A stretch of 64,000 nt of DNA, from NCBI RefSeq assembly GCF_009914755.1, contig NC_060925.1; one strand, given 5' to 3'. Shown here in pieces: positions 1,812-36,377 of this stretch. Position numbers and translations under genes: made by a program. Below the pieces are notes generated by a model. The model was not told the origin of the DNA and did no database searches. It saw only the letters and a program-made list of their open reading frames with translations. Position 1 is the stretch's first letter. Each line of letters begins with the position of its first letter. Source of the DNA: the human T2T-CHM13v2.0 reference genome, Homo sapiens.

Positions 1812-4470
1812 ATCTGGATCTCCCAATGAACTACTTCCTGCCTCTGAGTAAAATGATAGCTCTCTAGCTATCCTTGAGAATGGGCAATTGTTATCCTTGC
1901 AGAATGGGTAGCCACAAAACAGTGGAGCTCACAGTAGAAGAGAAGATTTAAATATCCCCTTAGTTCGTTCTAGAAGTAAGTTTCGCATGAGAAGCCTGAC
2001 TCACTGAAAGGTCCATTTCTGAAGTAGCACCTCATTCCAGCACTTGCCAAAAACAGTCTGGAAAGTAGTAGATGATCTTCCTTATTGGTTTGCTCTCCAG
2101 AACACAGGAGACCTCTCCTGATCCAATCCAATCAAAACATTTATCATGTTTTGGACTGCCATATACAGTTGTGCAGATTGTGTACTGCACAAAGGTACCT
2201 GAAATGATGGTGCTAAAATCTTGTCCACATTCCTTTGCCAGTCGTGCACTCTGGTTCAGGGATGCTTATACCTGGAGCAAAAGGTTTCAATTTTCTCTGC
2301 ACAAAAGTGCTATCCACTTTCCCAAGCTGTTCACTGGAAAAAAGGGGTGTGTGTGGCATGGAGCAGGGCTAGGAGTTGGGGGAAATGACACATTGTCCTA
2401 ATTTGGGAAATTCAAGATTAAATAAACAAGATAAATGATAGTTGTTTTAATTTAAACTACAGTATAATTATTCTTTAATCTGGGATGGTCAAGAAGGCAC
2501 TATTAAAGGTATGGGATTCAAGCTGAGTCTTAACTGGTAAGTAGAATTTATATGGATGTATATAGGGCCTTTAGTCAATAAATATTTATTAAGTACATAT
2601 TATGTACAAGCTATGAAGCTAGACACTAAGAATATAAAACAAGTGAAATTTGGCCTGCGTCCTTAAGATGGTAACTGATACATAAACTCATAATAACAGT
2701 TATTCTGTGATAAACACTGTATGGGAGGCATAAACTGCACAGGGCACAGAGAAGAAAGAGTGGCTATTTCAGTAGAGCACATTCTTCCAAGTTTTGCAAA
2801 AAATAGTTGTCTATACCAAACAGCAACAAGGCATAATTCCAAAATGGGGTTCAAAATGTGCAAAAGTATTTTTTAAAATAATTCTACAATGTCTTCACCA
2901 AATTAAAAAGCTCTGTTGGCCTCTATAGCCTGTCTCTTATTTTCTTCATCCATTCGTCCTAGTCTTCATGACTATCCTCTCCACTTTCCTGATTGCAAAC
3001 TAGTTCACTATACTTCAGTGACACACATTAAACAACATAAGCATAAACATTTACAAAGTGTTCCTCCTACATCAGAATACACACATTTCAAAATAGTTGT
3101 AGTAACTCCCTCTGATATTCTTTAGCTCCTGAACCTGATGATCATTCTCATAATGTGCTAGCAAGGGAATTTCTGGGACATTTTTTACATCTTAATATTC
3201 AAACTACTCATACAGAGATTTTTTTTCTGTATGGATCTTCTTGCCTAGTAATATGATCACAATCTCATGTTACCAAGAAACACAAAATACAGTCAATCTG
3301 AAAAATTTTTGATTTCCATGAGTCCGTTCAATTCAATCTACGAAAAACCAATTTATTCCTACTCTACTGTAACTTCTGGGTAGATATAGAAGTGCTCAGG
3401 AAAACCTTTTCCTAAAAAAACTGCAGAAAGACCTATCACCTGCATGTCACATATTTTCATTTAGTTCATATGGCTTTCAATTCTGAATTTCATTGTAAAG
3501 TAGATTTTATTATACTCATTAGCCTCATCCACTAAAGCACAAGTCTAAACTGTGACATAAAAGCAAAATAACTCTTTTGATTACTACAGTATATATGTGA
3601 TTGCATCATATATCATTTTGATTGCACATCCAAATTGCATATTTTATATTTAAGTTCAAAGAGTTCTCCACGAGGCATAAATGAAAATTTATGAAGTATG
3701 AACAAAGTTTTACAAGACTAAAATTAAAATTATTTCTAACTAGACTAAAAACCAAGAATATAGCCCCAAGTTAACCTAATCACATCACAAGAATGATTCG
3801 CTACTCTCTATAATTCAGCCTCATAAGACCACCCCATCTGAGTGTTTCTTATATAGCTATGTGTGTCATTGGCTGGAACTTTCCTTATAGGTGGTTTGTA
3901 AGGAGTAAAACTTACTTCTATAGGTGTTACTGTCTTCTTTCCTATGCATTAGCTAAAATTCCATTAGATAAAAATAAATTAGAATCAAAGTAAATTATTA
4001 AAATGCTGCTATATTCAGAGTTTCTTAGCATCTTTGACCCCAGGAGCTGAATCTTGACCAATGTTAATCATATTTACTGGGTCTGCAGGAAAACATTTTT
4101 GCAAACAGCTAAACAGCTATAATAAATGGTTAAGATAACACTGGGGTAAAGAATCTCTGGCCACAGAATGGAGTAATACAAATTGCTCTTGTGATGTATA
4201 TCGTCCACATGCAGTTGCTTAAGATTCTGAAAAGGCCAGTACAAATGTGATGATCTGGGGTGAAGCTGTTATTTACTAAATCTAGTGGTTTTCAAACCAT
4301 GTTCTGTGTATCCATAAGCTTTCAGGCCCCTTCACTTCTTCAATTAGAGCAGTCCAGAATTCATCTGTTTTCCAAACTATAGTTCCATATAACATTTGTT
4401 TGTAATGTTGTAAGTTATAATGTTATATTGGTTTTTTTTTTAAGAAAAAAAGATTTAAAAGTCATTGCCT

Positions 4471-4662
4471 CAGTAAAAAATAATCATCCTTTGGTAATTA
4501 TCTATCACAACTAAACTTAATTTTAAATGTTTTCTTAATTCAGAGATACTTGTATCTCAGTGGTATCAGTAAAAAATAATCATCCTTTGGTAATTATCTA
4601 TCACAACTAAACTTAATTTTAAATGTTTTCTTAATTCAGAGATACTTGTATCTCAGTGGTAT
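4471..4662. repeat. Perfect 2 x 96-bp tandem duplication
   Basis: 4471-4566 is identical to 4567-4662 on manual comparison. Confidence 0.95.
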
Positions 4663-16592: not shown

Positions 16593-17031
16593 CAGTAACT
16601 CATCTTTACTAAGGAACTCCTCTACATCAAGCCCTGTTGTAGGGGTTTATGAACAATTACCTCAATTAATTCCTTAAGACAACCTTTAGTGAATACTACT
16701 ATTATTCCCTAAATGAGAAAAAAAGCTTGGAGGGGTTAAATGATTAAGCCAAGTGTATTAGCTTTGAGATGGGTTCATTTTCTGTTTCCATGGGTAGAGC
16801 TGTAAAAAGTCTTTTTTTCCCCTGAGAAAGTGGGCTTTCACAAAAAAACTCACAAAATATAGGTAAACCACCAGCTGTTTCCTGTTCTCCCAAGATTTAG
16901 TGGGGAAGAAAGGGAAGAGAATCTCTAGGGGAGAATCAAGCTAGAATTGCTCACCACTCTAGGCAGAATTCAATACTTATCAGAGGCAAAGACATTCTGA
17001 GAGCCTGTGAGTCCCAAAAGAAACTGGATCC

Positions 17032-17169
17032 AGCTGGACATGGTGGCTCACACCTGTAATCCCAGCTTTTAGGGAGGCCAAGGCAAGGCGGGAGGATCTC
17101 TTGAGCCCAGGAGTTAAAGACAAGCCTGGGCAATACAGGGATACCTTGACTCTTAAAAAAAAAAAAAAA
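17032..17169 (+). mobile_element. FLAM / Alu left monomer
   Basis: single monomer with A tail. Confidence 0.8.
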
Positions 17170-18932
17170 TCCTTCTTTATCTAGCTTGGGGAATGTTGGG
17201 GGTGGGGGTTTGGTCCTAGCACTTCCATCGACCGGCCTCAGAGGCACATCAGTAGTGGCATAACACCTGCTGACTCAGGCCATCCCAGAGAAATAGCCAT
17301 TGGACCCTCTCTTTAGGTGTAGTCCTGGCTTTTAATAAGAGAGTTTGGGCTACTGAAACGCAAGTAATTCATCAGTCCCTTCAAAGTATAGATAAGAGCC
17401 AGTCATAAACTTAATTTCATACCTAGCATTGGTAGTTACATTGAAACTGCAGTAATACAATCAAATTGCATTAGCCAGCTTTATATTTAAGACCTACTGC
17501 TTTAATTACTTTAAACAACACAGTCTTGTGTGGAAGCAAAGAAAGTCTTGCTATAAAGTGGCATTAGCTTAGGAAACCCCAGATTCTTTGAAGGAGACCG
17601 TTCTAAGAACTCCTACCAGAACCAAAGTCAAGCAGCCAAAAGGAAAAAAAAAGATAAAGCCCGGACTTCAATCCTTGTTAGATGGACTAACCCACTGAGC
17701 AGAAAAATCCCCAGTACAGAAAAATAACCCTAACGAAGATTAGGACAGAAATATTACCTTTGTATATAATGGGTCAACACGTTTACACACTCGTGGGCCC
17801 CAGCTATCATTTCAATCTTCACTTCCTTCATTATCATAGAAAGTAAAAAATCCCTTAATACTGCTGAGCTAAATGAATGTTGTGTCTAAGCTCCTAAGAA
17901 TCAATTTTTTTAAGTTTTCTTTCTACAGTGGCTAATTGGAGAGGAGTTAAGAGTTCAGACTCTGTAAGTAAAGATCTGATTTCAAATTCCATCCTGCCTC
18001 AGGCTGCCTGTGAGACTCTGGGCCGGTTGCCTTTCTAGGTGCCCAGCTTGCTCATCTGTCAATTGGAACTAACAACAGTGCTCATGGGGGTTGCTGTAAG
18101 GACGAAATAGGCCAGTGCCTGGTGCAATGGAAATATGCAATATGTGTTAAATGTTATAAATGCTAACACATGAAGTACTGAAAGGTAGGATGATGACTTT
18201 TGAATTTTGGTTTGTGTGGTTTTTCCCCTCATGAGTTCCAATCTGTTTGGCCCCTAATGGCAAACTCTATCAGGTTGTGAGTCCTTGTTAACTCCACCAA
18301 AAGCTGAGAGAGATAAATGGACCCTTAGCAGCAGAAAAATTGCCTTCTGAAATAACCTCTTCCTGATGCATCCAGCATTTATGTGCTGTCCTTTTTTCCA
18401 AGACAAAAAATTGCATGTTGGAATTGGATTGGAGACATTATCTCGTGATGATTAAGGGAGGTTATTACTACAACAGTTCATGAAATGAAAGCTACCTGCT
18501 TTTACCCAGGGAGCTCTTGAAAATAACCCTCTTTTTCCCCAGTGAATAGGCAAGGAAAAGCAAGATTCCAATAATGGATAGCATTACAAATCCTTTTTCA
18601 TGTACTCTGCTTATCTAAATTGGCACATGATGCCTGCCCACCATCTCTCAGAAATTGTGAGAGGTACTGACTCATCCATCAAGCCCCACCTAACAGCCTG
18701 GGAGGCACCAAGGAGGATATTTCTCTTTCTCTGCTGCCTGTTCCTCACCAAACTGAATCAGCATTTCAAGGAGCTCAATTCCCATTCTGAAAGGTAATAC
18801 CTTCTAAAGATGGGGACGGCAGCACTTATGGAAATTCTAACCCATCAGCTGAAAGATAGGCATGTGAAAGTTAGAGAGTTACCCCACAGTAACCTCCCCA
18901 AAAGCTCTCCATTTGAAAAAATTTTAATTTTA

Positions 18933-19287
18933 CATATATATGTATATACACCCACACATAAACACACATACATACACATATATGTGTGTATATCTATGTA
19001 CATGCATACATGTATGTGTATATGTGTGTATATATATGCATATATATATATATTGCCTTCTGGAAAACCTCTTCCTGATGCATCCAGCATTTATGTGCTG
19101 TCCTTTTTTCCAAGACAAAAAATTGCATGTTGGAATTGGATTGGAGACATTATCTCATGATGATTAAGGGAGGTTATTCCTGCAACAGTTCATGAAATGA
19201 AAGCTACCTGCTTTTACCCAAGGAGCTCTTGAAAATAACCCTCTTTTTCCCCAGCAAATAGACTATATATATACATATATGTGTGTG

Positions 19288-19326
<39 letters not shown>

Positions 19327-19516
19327 ATATATATATATGTATAGAGCCCGGACTTTAATCCTTGTTAGATGGACTAACCCGCTGAGCAGAAAAATCCCCA
19401 GTACAACAAAATAACCCTAAGGAATATATATATTTTTTCTATAGTGGCTAATTGGAGAGGAGTAAGAGTTCAGACTCTGTAAGTAAATATCTGATTTCAA
19501 ATTCCATCCTATATAT
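18933..19516. repeat. Composite locally templated insertion with (TA/TG/CA)n linkers
   Basis: three patches match 18339-18549, 17654-17737 and 17920-17995. Confidence 0.92.
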
Positions 19517-19825
19517 TTTCCCAATACTTCATTTATACTTGCCAAATTTTTTCTCTTCCCCAAAACTACCTTTGGGAAGGGATTAGGAATGAGTCCCTAA
19601 TTTAAGTCTTGCATTGTTTAAGCTTTAAATCAGGGCCGAATATTCTCTTAACTATGAATGGTCATTGAACAAGGAAAAACAACAGATACACAAACGTATA
19701 TGTATCTTGGAATGGGAAGGAATAATGAGGAAAAAAATAAAAATATAAAAGAAATGGATATAAACAAATTCCTTATAAAGTACCTATCAAGAACTTACAC
19801 TATACCAGGCATTCTTTTAGGTATC

Positions 19826-20048
19826 CAGGATTCCTCAACCTCAGCACTATTGACACTTTGGGCTAAATCATTCTTTGTTGTGAGGAAACTGTTCTGTGCA
19901 TGACAGGACATTCAGCGCCATCCCTGGCCTCTACCCACTAGATGTCAGCAGCACCCCTCACCCTCGCCAAGTTATGAGAAGCAAAACTGTCTCCAGACTT
20001 TGCCAAATATCCCCAGGGAATAAAATCGCCTCTGGTTACGAACCACTG
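19826..20048. mobile_element. MER20 (hAT-Charlie)
   Basis: ctcaacctcagcactattgaca..catccctggcctctacccactagatg..gtctccagac..gaaccactg. Confidence 0.85.
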
Positions 20049-28053: not shown

Positions 28054-31000
28054 CCAGCTTCTCTTGTGCTAATGCAGTCTTGCTTTCAGGCTTCTCTGAC
28101 CACCTCATAAACTAATACGCACTGAGATTTTTTTATTAATGCTGATAGAGATTATTATCACCACAGTAAAGTGATTAAGTCACTTCAAAAGATAAAGAAA
28201 GTAAAAATAAATCATTGCCTTATTTGATATTGTATTGAGGAACTTTAATAACTTGAATTTCATCTTCTATCATGGTATGGTGCTGCTTGTGAGTGTATTT
28301 GGGTCACTAATATGTTGGATCATCAATAACATATCTTTTTCCACTAGAATCTGATGACTACTTTATTTGTGCCTCACTGTGATTTAAACTTCTTATATAA
28401 GTTAACAAATTGCCTTAATTCTGCAAGAAAGTACAAGAAACAAATTTTATTTTCAGAGTATTTTATTACCTTGCTGTATCTTGTTTCTCTATATGTCTAT
28501 AGTTTCATTAATTTTATTTTCCTAATTTTTCTACATTTTAAAATAGAATGTTAGTTTATTTTATGTTTTCTATAACCTTTAACTTTGCATAGTGTTCCCC
28601 AACTTAGCATATTTATCTTTTCTATTTTCTATATATTTGCATTTCTCATTCTTTGCAAAATTTTTATAGCTTTATAGCTAACCAGCTATTTTAGCATTGA
28701 GTGGAAAATAACTTTAACACTTTTTTTCTACAAAAGTGATAGCTTCTCAATTTTAGATTTCTTGTTATCACTTAAATACTATATTCTAGTTATCATTTAT
28801 AAAGAATAAATAAGAACCTAACAAAATCAGTTATAATAGCTGTACTTACCTTGGCTAAAGATGTAAATCAAATTACCCTGACATACAATTTCTGTATGTT
28901 TGCTAGGGATAGTAATTTTAAATGTCTCTAATGGAAGGATTCTCATTAAAAAGCAATAAATATTAAGTACTGGCTAACTTCACAAGTCAAACTTGATAAT
29001 TCTATGGCAGTGTGGTAGTACCTGCACAATTACCTACACAATTCAATAATGTTTCTTCCTCTACAACCCATAAGCCCAATATTAGGTAGCTAATAATACA
29101 GTAAAATGAACCTTCTCCCATTATTTTAAGTAGTTAAAGTAGGTATCCCAATGATAAATTTAATTACCTGAAGAATTTCTAAGCTTTTGGAAAGTATACA
29201 CGTATACAACTTCCTCAATCAGAGTTGAGTGATATGTCCCACAATGGAAAGTTGCAGATACTAAGTTTCTTTCCATCTTAAGAGAGAGCTTTGGTCACTG
29301 ATCAAACTTTGCCATCTTAAACTCATTTTAAAAACAAAAAACACAGAAGACTTAGAAGAGAGGAACACACTGTTTACGGTCAATAGCAGTGACATTATCC
29401 ACTATAAAACCTCCCTTTTCTGAACTTGGATATTAGCCAGCTCCTCCTGAACACCCTTATTTCTTCTCCTCTAACCTTGTCAACACATTTACCCCATGGA
29501 AAATGACAGGAAGTGACTAACATTTCCAGACAACACTAATCATGCCCCTGAACTAAAATAATGAAAACAGGAAAACCTATTCCAGACAAAGTAACAATAC
29601 AGAGTTCTGTATTATCAATCAAAGTATCTTATAAACAGAATGCTCCAAATTCCTTGCCTTCCACCATGATATTGTTTTACATTGCTGTTTTCCAATTCGG
29701 CATACAGACTACAGAGCTGATGTGTATTTTTTAAGTAGGTTTTAAAAATAAGTAAGTCACAGTGTCATATGCCCTCACATGCCATCCATATACAAAGAAT
29801 ACATAACCACCTACGTACTTCCATTTCACAAACACCAAGTGGGTTGAGCTTCTCCCCATAACTCCCCCAAAAAACGCTTATGATACTTGAAAACTCACCA
29901 TTTAGGTCAATTCCTTTATTTATGGTATAAATCCCCTATTTAATATAAATAGCCCTGGTAGGCATAATAGTTAAGAATTGTTAGTCTCTTTTCCCTTGGT
30001 ATAAATATGGTTATCAATACCTTATCTAAGAGCAATTTTAATTTGGAAAACAGCGTGAAGAAGAAAGAAATGGAAAAAGGTGGACCCTGGAGATTCAAAA
30101 GACAAGATTTTTTTAGTCAAAATTTTGAACAGAGTAAGACATGACAGAAAAATTCAGGCAACATTATGTCCATCTGCTTAATGTAAATATAACATATTCA
30201 TAGGATAAAGCTCAATGCCAGACACTTCCACCATTGCATGGCCCCAGCCAGCTTTGCATGGGAACTCACTGCTACCCCTACCAATCAGGGGGTAGTAGTT
30301 GGCTTTCTTTGGTAGTCCTCACCAACCTATTCTTGTACTTCCAGCTCTATTCTGTCCTCTTAGAGGTGTCAGTGGCATTCCAGGATGAAGTGGTGGGGAT
30401 CTCAGCTCTGGGAGTTCATATGCTACTGGTGCTGATTGCCAACCTGCAACAGCCATTAGAGTCCAAGGGATAATGAGAGTAAGGAGACTTCTATCAAGTT
30501 CAGCCAGCTGAAACCATGCATCTAAAATGCTATGGGAAGAAGAGGCAGGGATCAGACAGGAGCAGAAAATAGAAGTAAAAAAGAGAGCTGATGGCCCAGG
30601 GTTTTTAGCTGCTAAACCAAGCCTTCTATTGCCAACATGCTCTGGCCCCATGCATTTACTGGAACTCACACTACCTACTTGCCATAGGCTTGAAAAAAGG
30701 AAAGAAAGGAAAGCAGACTCTAGCAAACTTCTCTGAATGTCCACAGCACACAGGATGTGCCTGATTTACGGAATCTTACAGTGAGGAGTGACTGTAAGAA
30801 AAAGCAATTTGCCCGTGACTTATAAGAGACTCAAAAAGCCCCTCACTCCTACTCTCTTTTGTTGGTAGGGGCAAGATAGAGGTCCATAAAATCCAACAGT
30901 ATAAACTTCATAAAGACTTGCCTTCTGCCTTCTGCCTTCTGTTCACCTTCTGCTATGTAACTACAGCCTCTGCCAGCAATCGAGACCTGCTTGCTACAGA

Positions 31001-34091: not shown

Positions 34092-34398
34092 TCTTAGTAA
34101 CTATAATAGTACAGAGACAAGGTACTGCCTTCTGTTCACCTTCTGCTATGTAACTACAGCCTTTCCAGCAATCGAGACCTACTTAGCAGGTATTTTGTAC
34201 CTGAGTACAAACCATGGGTTATAACTGAACACAATTTGCTGCTCATATTGGTCCAGGTTTGGCTATTAAAATCTCATTCAGTTGGCTCCTGTGCCCCTTT
34301 GACTTATCCATATAAGTGATTTTGCTTAGTTACTTCCTTACTTTCTGGCATTACAAGATTACCCAGTCTCAGCTTCTTAGTAACTATAATAGTACAGA
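34092..34398. repeat. Composite locally templated insertion flanked by 24-bp direct repeats
   Basis: patches match 30932-30992 and 35910-36091. Confidence 0.9.
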
Positions 34399-36377
34399 CA
34401 GCCAAAGGTTGTTACCATTAACTTATCACACAGTCCTCATTGCCCTCTGACCAGTGAGTGGACTGTCCAGTTCCAGAGTCCCATTCAGAGCATCTGCTCT
34501 GTAGAGCCACTCTTGGTTCCAACAAGAAGTACAGCCTGAAATTAGGACTTGGGTACAGTAGTTTGAGAAGTGATCCCAGGAGTAGGAAGAAAAGCACAGG
34601 AAAGAATGGTAAATATAATGGTATGTAATAGAAGTCAATGCTTTAGGCACCAGAGACTGAATTTTACTATAATCTCAAAAAGAGTGTACAGAAAGCAGCT
34701 AACATTGTCTGTCTGAAGGAGAGAACTTTAGGGCATTTATCCACCAGCTCAGGTCCCTCATTGAATGAGGGAGCATAAATTCCCCCACACTTCTGGATTG
34801 CACTTGCATGAGAGTCACACAGGTTGCCTTAGTGCCCAGAGTGAAAAGAAGAAAGAAGCACGGAACATGCCTCTAGAAGGATGGTAAGTCTGAACTCACT
34901 TGGAACTGTCCACTGCAGCTATGGTGCTGCAAAAATGGACCATGGGGAAATGACACAGGCACCAACAGTGTCTGCCACACTAGCTGTATAACCCTGGGCA
35001 ACAAACAACTTACCTGAGCCTGTATCCTTATCTATAAAATGAGGTACATGTCACCTGTCTAACACAGTCATGTGAGGACTCAATTTGTCAGCGAATTAAA
35101 AGAACCAGGTGTCCTGCCCATCATCAAGTCTGGCTGAGGTGTCACACATGAAGGTAGACACCATATACCCTTATCATTTCATATCTTGGTGTTTTGTATG
35201 TTTAGTGCTCATTTTAGGTCAATGGGGCATTTCAAGTTAAGTGGAGTAGAAGTAAGTAAAGGAAAAGTTTGGGGAAGGGTAAGTGAAATAATAGTTCAGG
35301 GTATTTTTTTCCCAGAGACATTCAGTTGGTCCAGCTCTATTTGTTGAAACACTATTATTTTTCACATTGAATTACCTGGACCCGTTTGTTAATTAGTTGG
35401 TCCTAGAAGTGAGATCCTACATATGGAGTCTCTGCTCTATTCCATTCATCTGCATATCTCTCATGAATACTGCACACTTTATTTATACTGGTTAATATTG
35501 TAGTTTTATAATAAATATTGGAATCGAGTCGGGTTAGGTCCTCCAATCTTATCTTGTTTTTTTAATACACTTTAAAAACAGTTTTAGATTAACAGAAAAA
35601 TTGAGAAGACAGCACAAAATTACCACATACCCTGTACCCAGATTTTCCTATTTTAACTTCTTACATTAGCATTGTACATCTGTTACAATTAACAATCCAG
35701 TAGTGATACAATATTATTAACTAAAGTCTCAAACTTTATTCAGATTCCCTTAGTCTTTAGCTAATGTCCTTTTTCTGTTCCAAAATCCCAAAAAGAAAAC
35801 CATGGTACTTTTAGTTGTCATGTCTCCTTTTGCTCTGCTTGGCTGTGACTCTTTTTCAGACTTTCCTCGTATTTGGATGACCTTGACAGTTCTGAAAATT
35901 GCTGAGTATGTATTTTGTACCAGGGTACAAACCATGGGTTATAATCCAACACAACTTGCTGCTCAAGTTGGTCCAGCTTTGGCTGTTGAAAGCTCATTCA
36001 GTAGGCTCCTGTGCCCCTTTGACATATCCCTGTAAGTGATTTTGCTTTGTTTTTTCCTTACTTTCTGGCACTACAAGATGACCCAGTCTCATCCTATGTA
36101 TTTCTTACCCCAGTTCTGGAATCAGCAACTTATCCAAGAGTTTCTGTTGCTTTTATTGGAGAATGATACAGAAAACAAAATCTGGGCACTAGGCATGCTC
36201 ATTGCTACTTTGTCTTTTTAAATATTGTCTTGACCATTTAAGGTTCTTTGTCTTCCCATGTGAATTTTAGAATCAGTCTGTAAACCCCTTCAAATGAGGC
36301 TGCTAGGCTTTTGATTGGAATTAAATTTATAGATCAATTTGGAGAGAATTTTCATTCTAATATTGTTTGCTGATCCA

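What the first reader, a model, noticed from the sequence alone, without database searches (positions are those of the whole stretch)
18933..19516. Patchwork array: three copies of nearby unique DNA separated by (TA/TG)n microsatellite linkers
Seen: the order is microsatellite 18933-19051, patch A, microsatellite 19264-19340, patch B, (TA)n, patch C, atatat. Patch A (19052-19261) copies 18339-18549 with about 8 differences in 210 nt. Patch B (19341-19424) copies 17654-17737 with about 6 in 84. Patch C (19436-19510) copies 17920-17995 with about 3 in 76. All patches are in direct orientation but out of genomic order (donors 0.7, 1.7 and 1.5 kb upstream), and each begins at a 2-3 nt AT-rich microhomology (at, ata, ttt). 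The flanks (ttttacatata... / ...atatattttccc) suggest the original site was a short AT tract. Inference: one repair event in which a 3' end cycled between slippage synthesis on the (TA)n tract and invasion of nearby templates, as in polymerase-theta templated insertion or MMBIR/FoSTeS. The result is a linker-spacer array recording local DNA. Repeat annotation would report only the microsatellites.
Basis: partly seen in the sequence, partly recalled or inferred. Interest (0 to 1): 0.85.

Follow-up and report, generated by a model that had tools for sequence, protein, structure and literature searches.

The report
Patchwork repair scar in a microsatellite
A TA/TG microsatellite in an intron of human PALMD holds three diverged copies of unique DNA from 0.7-1.7 kb upstream, most likely an old scar of DNA-break or replication repair that copied nearby sequence, which is a known kind of event in an unusually elaborate form.

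Summary
Window 18932-19516 reads microsatellite, patch A, microsatellite, patch B, TA, patch C, TA.

- **Patches and donors.** A (19052-19261) copies 18339-18549 (203/211 columns). B (19341-19427) copies 17654-17740 (80/87). C (19433-19510) copies 17917-17995 (75/79). All are direct.
- **Uniqueness.** In the 3.1-Gb genome each patch matches only itself and its local donor, so they are not a dispersed repeat.
- **Age.** Divergence is homogeneous (p=0.19), 12 transitions to 5 transversions, and not clustered. Pooled divergence is 4.5%, roughly 12-34 My.
- **Order.** B and C keep donor order, so the array may be two copied tracts, not three.
- **Closest known kind.** Repair-mediated duplication (Pace et al. 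2009): 824 proximal captures under 5 kb, mean 162 bp, with some two-donor chimeras.
- **Other signatures.** Tract size, distance and orientation do not fit the Pol-theta or inverted MMB-TI signatures.
- **Comparison.** A second two-patch local capture lies in the same window at about 34116-34374.

One event versus serial events, and SDSA versus replicative switching, stay open because no primate orthologues were available. I read it as a new, elaborate member of a known kind, of modest interest.

The parts
18932..19051 (.). M1: degenerate CA/TA/TG microsatellite on the left of the array, probably the pre-existing target tract
   Evidence: TRF rows 18944-19053. The hub table lists 18908-19059 as masked. 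The CA-rich left half and TG-rich right half are partly self-complementary (I5).
19052..19261 (+). Patch A, a copy of 18339-18549
   Evidence: 203/211 columns, 7 substitutions and 1 indel; the only other genome match is the donor (96%, E=7e-92).
19262..19340 (.). 'AC' plus M2: (TA)n(TG)n(TA)n linker between patches A and B
   Evidence: TRF rows 19264-19343, with a (TG) run at 19280-19326. Not more similar to M1 than composition predicts (133/1000 shuffles score as high).
19341..19427 (+). Patch B, a copy of 17654-17740
   Evidence: 80/87; the only other genome match is the donor (92%, E=3e-27).
19428..19432 (.). Five-base TA linker between B and C. It replaces 176 nt (17741-17916) of the donor.
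19433..19510 (+). Patch C, a copy of 17917-17995
   Evidence: 75/79 columns, 3 substitutions and 1 indel; the only other genome match is the donor (95%, E=5e-26).
19511..19516 (.). Terminal ATATAT before the unique right flank (TTTCCCAATAC...)
18339..18549 (+). Donor of patch A, in continuous unique intronic DNA
17654..17740 (+). Donor of patch B
17917..17995 (+). Donor of patch C

Best explanation
This is a germline repair scar with no evident function. A structure-prone TA/TG microsatellite in PALMD intron 2 broke or stalled a replication fork. The lesion was mended in one episode of templated synthesis that used nearby ectopic templates on the same or the sister chromatid.

A 3' end primed at 2-3 nt of AT-rich microhomology. 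It copied 210 nt from 0.7 kb upstream (A). Further synthesis copied 17654-17995 with a 176-nt skip (B and C), and the ends were rejoined within microsatellite sequence. [quoted passage not shown]

Shown here: the copies, their uniqueness, their direct orientation, the junction microhomology, and homogeneous neutral-looking divergence.

Inferred: a single event, which copy is the donor, the microsatellite as the site of the lesion, and an age of roughly 12-34 My.

Not resolved: two-ended SDSA, with the left end copying A, the right end copying C then B, and annealing in M2, versus a one-ended or lagging-strand replicative switch (FoSTeS/MMBIR-like) running A to M2 to B to C.
For: - **Real, unique copies.** Each patch matches only itself and its donor in the 3.1-Gb genome. 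The 1333-nt donor region matches only itself and the three patches.
- **Search sensitivity.** One search found 38 dispersed matches at 70-85% identity (41 rows in all) for another local patch, so old repeats would have been seen.
- **Fit to the known class** (Pace 2009). That class has donors under 5 kb (753 of 1136 under 3 kb, with a peak near 1.2 kb), acceptor mean 162 bp and maximum 619 bp, microhomology 2-9 nt, filler 1-68 nt, no poly(A), and 20 two-donor chimeras, 5 of them with both donors local. Here the lengths are 210, 87 and 78 nt, the offsets are 0.71, 1.69 and 1.52 kb, and the microhomologies are AT, ATA and TT(T).
- **One age is compatible.** Differences are 7/210, 7/87 and 3/78, chi-square p=0.196 and Monte-Carlo p=0.19. 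There are 12 transitions to 5 transversions and no clustering (p=0.22-0.23).
- **Clustering favours one event or a hot spot.** There are three captures within 460 bp, against 10 unvalidated candidate pairs in 264 kb.
- **Fragility of the target.** TA repeats are described as cruciform-prone break sites (passages of PMC13645644). Non-B microsatellites drive microhomology-mediated template switching in human cells (PMC11161834).
- **Hairpin potential.** M1+M2 joined in silico folds as a CA/TG quasi-palindrome of -47.1 kcal/mol, z=-2.4, with 2 of 200 shuffles as low.
Against: - No orthologous empty site could be examined, so direction, single-event origin and age are all inferred.
- The homogeneity test has little power. 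B alone against A+C gives p=0.08.
- Pace's two-ended model gives at most one tract per end. It does not by itself explain a 79-nt microsatellite between A and B, which is longer than their largest filler of 68 nt.
- M2 is not demonstrably a copy of M1.
- M1 alone is not more foldable than shuffles (z=-1.1). Today's microsatellite sequence need not be the sequence at the time of the event.
- The 3' junction of A has no clear microhomology.
Confidence: 0.6

Rival explanations
1. Serial events. The microsatellite is a recurrent fragile site. Two or three independent repair-mediated duplications landed in it at different times: A in one event, and B and C in one or two others. Each insertion split the tract into the present linkers.
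For: Every patch has microsatellite or TA on both sides, as expected if each insertion hit the tract. B is nominally more diverged than the others, 8.0% against 3.3% and 3.8%, with B versus A+C p=0.08. TA repeats are recurrent break sites.
Against: Overall divergence is homogeneous (p=0.19). With B's ambiguous ends trimmed the p-value is 0.33. All donors lie upstream within 1.7 kb and all are direct, which independent events need not share; the other capture in this window uses one upstream and one downstream donor. Given about 10 unvalidated candidate pairs per 264 kb, this reading needs a very strong local hot spot.
Confidence: 0.25
2. Eroded tandem multiplication. The roughly 1.4-kb unit 17654-19051 (B-x-C-y-A-z-M1) was triplicated in tandem. 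At least four deletions then left only A', M2, B' and C'.
For: The order A', B', C' is a cyclic rotation of the donor order B, C, A. M2 follows A' as M1 follows A (after z).
Against: Half of all orders of three items are cyclic rotations, so the order says little. About 2.2 kb would have to be lost in at least four deletions, each ending exactly at TA/TG sequence, while unit 1 stays intact. No trace of x, y or z (176, 343 and 383 nt) is found in the linkers; one search lists only the three patches as secondary matches. M2 is not detectably homologous to M1.
Confidence: 0.05
3. RNA-templated capture. Fragments of PALMD pre-mRNA (intron 2) were reverse-transcribed and used to patch a break.
For: All donors lie in the same intron and all patches are in the sense orientation of PALMD (hub table).
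Against: There is no poly(A) and no convincing target-site duplication. In Pace's sample none of the 39 proximal duplications examined had poly(A/T) tracts, which marked distant events only. The second capture in this window combines an intronic donor with an intergenic one, so local DNA templating is enough to explain such events.
Confidence: 0.05
4. Dispersed repeat family or assembly artefact.
For: None found.
Against: Only two genomic places match each patch. The copies differ from their donors by 3-8%, with a neutral-like substitution spectrum, which a mis-assembly of identical reads would not produce.
Confidence: 0.01

Closest known systems
[quoted passage not shown] Read here: abstract, sections 4, 5 (parts 1-2) and 14, plus found passages.
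   Same: An insertion of at least 50 bp whose only other genomic copy lies under 5 kb away on the same chromosome. Lengths around 80-210 bp, distances around 0.7-1.7 kb, microhomology of 2-9 nt, filler, no poly(A), and chimeric acceptors from two local donors. The ages also match: their hominid and catarrhine classes are the most populated.
   Different: There are three patches (or two tracts, one with an internal skip), where they report at most two donors. The acceptor is a microsatellite and not a transposable element, so their TE-based pipeline could not have found it. The linkers are microsatellite, and the 79-nt one is longer than their largest filler (68 nt). Their text never mentions microsatellites or simple repeats (0 occurrences).
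'Doublets', short paired local duplications (Thomas et al. 2004). Seen only as cited and summarised in Pace's section 14; the paper itself was not read.
   Same: [quoted passage not shown]
   Different: As summarised, these are pairs and not multi-patch arrays. Further details were not checked.
FoSTeS/MMBIR template switching and MMB-TI insertions (Osia et al. 2021, PMC8421209; found passages read)
   Same: Several template switches in cis joined at microhomology. 'Direct duplication' classes at quasi-palindromes are mentioned.
   Different: The MMB-TI signature is an inverted copy of a template within 100 bp. Here the copies are direct and 0.7-1.7 kb away. Classical FoSTeS/MMBIR products are CNVs of kb to Mb scale (recalled, not read here).
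Polymerase-theta end joining with templated insertions, and breaks at TA repeats (PMC11541566 and PMC13645644; found passages read)
   Same: TA repeats act as cruciform-prone break sites whose repeats supply microhomology. Repair leaves templated sequence.
   Different: The insertions analysed there are 2-15 bp or 'short duplications' next to the break, in somatic or cancer settings. Here the tracts are 78-210 nt, come from up to 1.7 kb away, and are fixed in the germline.
Microsatellite-induced break-induced replication with template switching at an ectopic site in human cells (PMC11161834; 12 of 44 found passages read)
   Same: Non-B microsatellites, including an AT-rich one, trigger recurrent microhomology-guided switches among domains within a few kb, in forward or reverse polarity.
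   Different: The products there are extrachromosomal circles in HeLa clones with hypermutation. Here the product is a chromosomal germline allele with no sign of clustered hypermutation.

Membership tests
Repair-mediated duplication (Pace 2009) | The inserted sequence is at least 50 bp and is found at exactly one other place in the genome | tested here: met
   each patch (210, 87 and 78 nt) matches only itself and its donor at E<=10 in 3.1 Gb.
Repair-mediated duplication (Pace 2009) | Donor on the same chromosome within 5 kb, and not tandem (more than 50 bp apart) | tested here: met
   start-to-start offsets of 713, 1687 and 1516 nt.
Repair-mediated duplication (Pace 2009) | Breakpoints carry microhomology, filler or a deletion, and have no poly(A/T) tail | tested here: met
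   AT, ATA and TT(T) at the 5' junctions, TA/TG filler of 5-79 nt, and no poly(A). The 3' junction of A has no clear microhomology.
Repair-mediated duplication (Pace 2009) | An empty orthologous site in an outgroup identifies the acceptor | not testable with these tools
   No primate genomes are held; one search states that G000 'has no relatives here'.
Repair-mediated duplication (Pace 2009) | Acceptor interrupts an annotated transposable element (a criterion of their pipeline, not of the biology) | tested here: not met
   The acceptor is a microsatellite. This explains why such a locus lies outside their catalogue. Their Table S1 could not be opened.
Pol-theta (TMEJ) templated insertion | A short insertion copied from sequence immediately beside the break | tested here: not met
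   The tracts are 78-210 nt and the templates are 0.7-1.7 kb away. PMC11541566 scores insertions of 2-15 bp.
MMB-TI signature of MMBIR (Osia 2021) | Inverted copy of a template within 100 bp, with microhomology at the junctions | tested here: not met
   All three patches are direct and distant. Only the microhomology criterion is met.
FoSTeS/MMBIR-type multi-switch rearrangement | At least two template switches in one event, joined at microhomology | tested here: inconclusive
   The architecture fits, with 3-4 junctions showing 1-3 nt of microhomology. A single-event origin is compatible but not shown.
Dispersed repeat / transposable element | Many diverged copies genome-wide | tested here: not met
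   as a positive control for sensitivity.
Eroded tandem duplication | Remnants of the inter-patch donor sequence between the patches | tested here: not met
   The linkers are pure simple repeat. One search finds no second copy of the x, y or z segments.

The most novel reading that the evidence does not exclude
Structure-prone TA/TG (quasi-palindromic) microsatellites may be recurrent germline acceptor sites. A stalled nascent strand would repeatedly switch to exposed template within an Okazaki-zone distance upstream, always in direct orientation, and return to the repeat between switches. This would produce a genome-wide class of 'microsatellite-linked patch arrays'. Neither repeat annotation nor the TE-based catalogue of repair-mediated duplications can see such arrays. 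They would be a fossil record of replicative, not break-end, template switching in the primate germline.
Probability: 0.2. Interest if true: 0.55.

Novelty: new member of a known kind. Interest (0 to 1): 0.3.

Why it matters
This is a clean, datable germline example in which at least two, and probably three or four, template switches over 1.7 kb were needed to mend one lesion at a simple repeat. It ties two topics that are usually studied apart: TA-repeat fragility, known mainly from cancer and reporter work, and local capture duplications in primate evolution.

It also exposes a blind spot. The published catalogue looked only inside transposable elements, and repeat maskers report only the microsatellite. 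Two such captures in one 64-kb window hint that the class is commoner than catalogued.

There is no sign of function. The locus is deep in an intron and had no Rfam match.

Tried and rejected
- **Dispersed-repeat origin.** Rejected (control).
- **M2 as a templated copy of M1.** The alignment score of 72 is reached by 133/1000 dinucleotide shuffles and by 83-111/1000 block shuffles. No evidence for it.
- **Error-prone-synthesis signature.** Clustered differences were tested: 2 adjacent pairs against 0.89 expected (p=0.22), and 4 pairs within 3 nt against 2.56 expected (p=0.23). Not significant.
- **Hairpin of M1 alone.** z=-1.1, not significant. Only the in-silico M1+M2 join gives z=-2.4. This is suggestive only, because (TA)n pairs with itself in any register.
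It gave 23 matches per strand, against 78 for the reversed control. All the matches printed were degenerate micro- or minisatellites, and our own locus would not match the pattern. Uninformative.
- **Pilot survey for local non-tandem duplicates.** In 264 kb (the window plus that block) the script found 10 candidate pairs: 5 in the window and 5 in the block. Only the three pairs of this finding adjoin microsatellites. The 5 pairs in the block were not validated, and the one I looked at may be transposon-derived. No rate can be claimed.
- **Rfam on 17000-20000.** 0 matches.
- **Target-site duplication around the block.** Only a shared 'ATTTT' in AT-rich flanks, which is not meaningful.
- **Earlier findings of this scan.** Closed.
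- **Pace's supplementary Table S1.** Closed. I could not check whether either locus is catalogued there.
- **Helitron, Pack-MULE or L1-chimera capture.** Considered from recall and rejected: no termini, terminal inverted repeats or poly(A).

Full report
**What is there.**
- M1, a degenerate CA/TA/TG microsatellite, at 18932-19051.
- Patch A at 19052-19261, matching 18339-18549 (211 columns: 203 matches, 7 substitutions, 1 indel).
- 'AC' plus M2, a (TA)(TG)n(TA) tract, at 19262-19340.
- Patch B at 19341-19427, matching 17654-17740 (80/87).
- Five bases of TA.
- Patch C at 19433-19510, matching 17917-17995 (79 columns: 75 matches, 3 substitutions, 1 indel).
- ATATAT at 19511-19516, followed by unique flank.

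All patches are direct, with offsets of 713, 1687 and 1516 nt. The 5' junctions share AT, ATA and TT(T) with the adjoining TA tract. The 3' junctions share 0, 2 (AT) and 1 (T) bases. B'+C' can therefore be read as one copied tract, 17654-17995, in which 176 nt (17741-17916) are replaced by five bases of TA. Only A is displaced.

**Not a repeat family, not an artefact.** The window's own genome (3.1 Gb, 24 contigs) could be searched. Each patch matched only itself and its local donor (two searches were run at E<=10). The whole donor region 17600-18932 matched only itself and the three patches. The same search run on another local patch returned 38 dispersed matches at 70-85% identity. Old interspersed repeats would therefore have been detected. 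The copies differ from their donors by 3-8%, which excludes a collapsed or duplicated assembly of identical reads.

**Age and number of events.**
- Substitutions are 7/210, 7/87 and 3/78. Homogeneity is not rejected (chi-square p=0.196, Monte-Carlo p=0.19). B against A+C gives p=0.08, or 0.33 after trimming B's ambiguous ends.
- The test is weak, so one age is compatible but not proven.
- The differences are 12 transitions to 5 transversions, with 3 at CpG sites. They are not clustered (p=0.22 and 0.23). They look like ordinary neutral decay and not a burst of error-prone synthesis.
- Pooled divergence is 17/375 = 4.5% (95% CI 2.7-7.2%).
- With the pairwise rate used by Pace et al. (2.2e-9 per year) this gives about 21 My, range 12-34. 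A slower rate would make the event older.

**What kind of thing it is.** The literature search led to Pace, Sen, Batzer & Feschotte 2009 (PMC2671141; I read the abstract, sections 4, 5 parts 1-2 and 14, and found passages). They describe 'repair-mediated duplications':
- They found 1,136 insertions of at least 50 bp whose only other copy is elsewhere in the genome.
- Of these, 824 have the donor within 5 kb and 753 within 3 kb, with an apparent peak near 1.2 kb.
- Mean acceptor length is 162 bp and the maximum is 619 bp.
- Breakpoints show microhomology of 2-9 nt, filler of 1-68 nt and small deletions.
- None of the 39 proximal cases they examined had a poly(A) tract.
- There are 20 acceptors that are chimeras of two donors. 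In 5 of these the second donor lies within 3.5 kb of the first.
- Most events are dated to the hominid, catarrhine or primate stems.

Every biological criterion that I could test is met by each of our patches; the membership table lists them. Their model is synthesis-dependent strand annealing, in which each 3' end of a break may copy a different ectopic template before the two anneal.

**How this case differs.**
- Their pipeline looks only for interruptions of annotated transposable elements, and their text never mentions microsatellites or simple repeats. Our acceptor is a microsatellite.
- We have three patches, or two tracts, one with an internal skip.
- The middle linker is 79 nt of TA/TG, longer than their largest filler.
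- None of the entries listed by six library searches, judged by their titles and abstract starts, describes local multi-patch captures joined by microsatellite. The library lacks most subscription journals, so this does not prove the case is absent from print.

**Mechanism.**
- *The lesion.* Passages of PMC13645644 describe TA repeats as cruciform-prone sites. These are cleaved by structure-specific nucleases and then repaired through microhomology supplied by the repeat. PMC11161834 shows non-B microsatellites, including an AT-rich one, driving microhomology-guided template switches among domains within a few kb in human cells.
- *Folding.* M1's CA-rich half is complementary to its own TG-rich half and to M2's TG run (I1-I5). 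M1+M2 joined in silico folds at -47.1 kcal/mol (DNA parameters), z=-2.4, with 2 of 200 dinucleotide shuffles as low. M1 alone gives z=-1.1, and four unique controls give z=-1.24 to +0.66. Patch A sits about 12 nt from the predicted apex. This is suggestive only, because TA tracts pair in any register and microsatellites change quickly.
- *Two models fit.* (i) Two-ended SDSA. The left end primes at AT and copies A. The right end copies C, skips, and copies B. Both then pick up repeat sequence and anneal there, which would explain M2. (ii) A one-ended or lagging-strand switch (FoSTeS/MMBIR-like) running A, M2, B, C. In this model all templates should be upstream, direct and within an Okazaki-zone distance, as observed. 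By chance that has odds of only about 1/8 to 1/32, so it is weak evidence.
- *Polymerase.* Pol theta is a poor fit as the copying polymerase. The work read scores insertions of 2-15 bp next to the break. The MMB-TI signature is inverted and within 100 bp.

**Rivals.**
- *Serial captures at a fragile tract (0.25).* They explain why every patch is flanked by repeat. They need a strong hot spot and do not explain the shared side and orientation.
- *Eroded tandem triplication (0.05).* It needs at least four deletions, each ending exactly in repeat, and no remnant of the inter-patch segments is found. M2 is not detectably homologous to M1.
- *RNA-templated capture (0.05).* It has no positive hallmark.
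- *Repeat family or artefact (0.01).* Excluded.

**Context in the same window.** A self-comparison of the window found a second patchwork.
- An insert of about 259 nt at 34116-34374 is flanked by a perfect 24-nt direct repeat (34092-34115 and 34375-34398).
- It is made of a copy of 30932-30992 (58/61, 3.2 kb upstream) and a copy of 35902-36091 (166/190, 1.7 kb downstream).
- It has no microsatellite.
- Its second patch belongs to an old dispersed family, but the local copy is clearly the best match (87% over 190 nt, against 70-85% elsewhere).
- The unequal divergences (5% and 12.6%) together with a perfect flanking repeat are unexplained.

In 264 kb the script listed 10 candidate pairs, and only those of this finding adjoin microsatellites. 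The 5 candidates in the block were not validated, so no frequency is claimed.

**Verdict.**
It is wrong or unproven in its particulars: Pol theta, the whole block being made de novo, and three scrambled patches.
- It is an elaborate new member of a known class of germline repair scars, with no evidence of function.
- Orthologous primate sequence would settle single versus serial origin in one alignment. It was not available here.

Noticed in passing
window 34092-34398 (donors 30932-30992 and 35902-36091): A second local patchwork insertion. An insert of about 259 nt is flanked by a perfect 24-nt direct repeat (TSD-like). It is built from a 61-column copy of DNA 3.2 kb upstream (58/61) and a 190-nt copy of DNA 1.7 kb downstream (166/190). 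It has no microsatellite. The second patch derives from an old dispersed repeat, but its best genomic match is the local one. The unequal divergence of the two patches, set against a perfect flanking repeat, is unexplained.
   Followed up: partly
window 4470-4662: A perfect tandem duplication of a 96-97-nt unit (97/97 identical, with the copies overlapping by one base) in AT-rich intronic DNA. The identity implies a very recent event or ongoing homogenisation.
   Followed up: no
L020:1459-1650 versus L020:3500-3594 and 3859-3957: In the 200-kb comparison block, a 192-nt stretch matches two pieces 2 kb downstream (87-88%) that are separated by 264 nt. This is the same 'one tract with an internal skip' geometry as patches B and C. 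It may instead be transposon-derived; genome-wide copy number was not checked.
   Followed up: partly
L021:6857-6993/7163-7299; L023:3289-3649/5699-6059; L024:3402-3717/4601-4916: Three inverted local pairs of 137, 361 and 316 nt (91%, 97.8% and 94.6% identical) lie 0.3-2.4 kb apart in the comparison block. They are low-copy within the block. Their origin was not examined.
   Followed up: no
window 18931-18983 versus 19291-19343: The CA-rich half of M1 and the TG run of M2 are 83% complementary over 53 nt. Patch A therefore lies between the arms of a long imperfect inverted repeat.
   Followed up: yes
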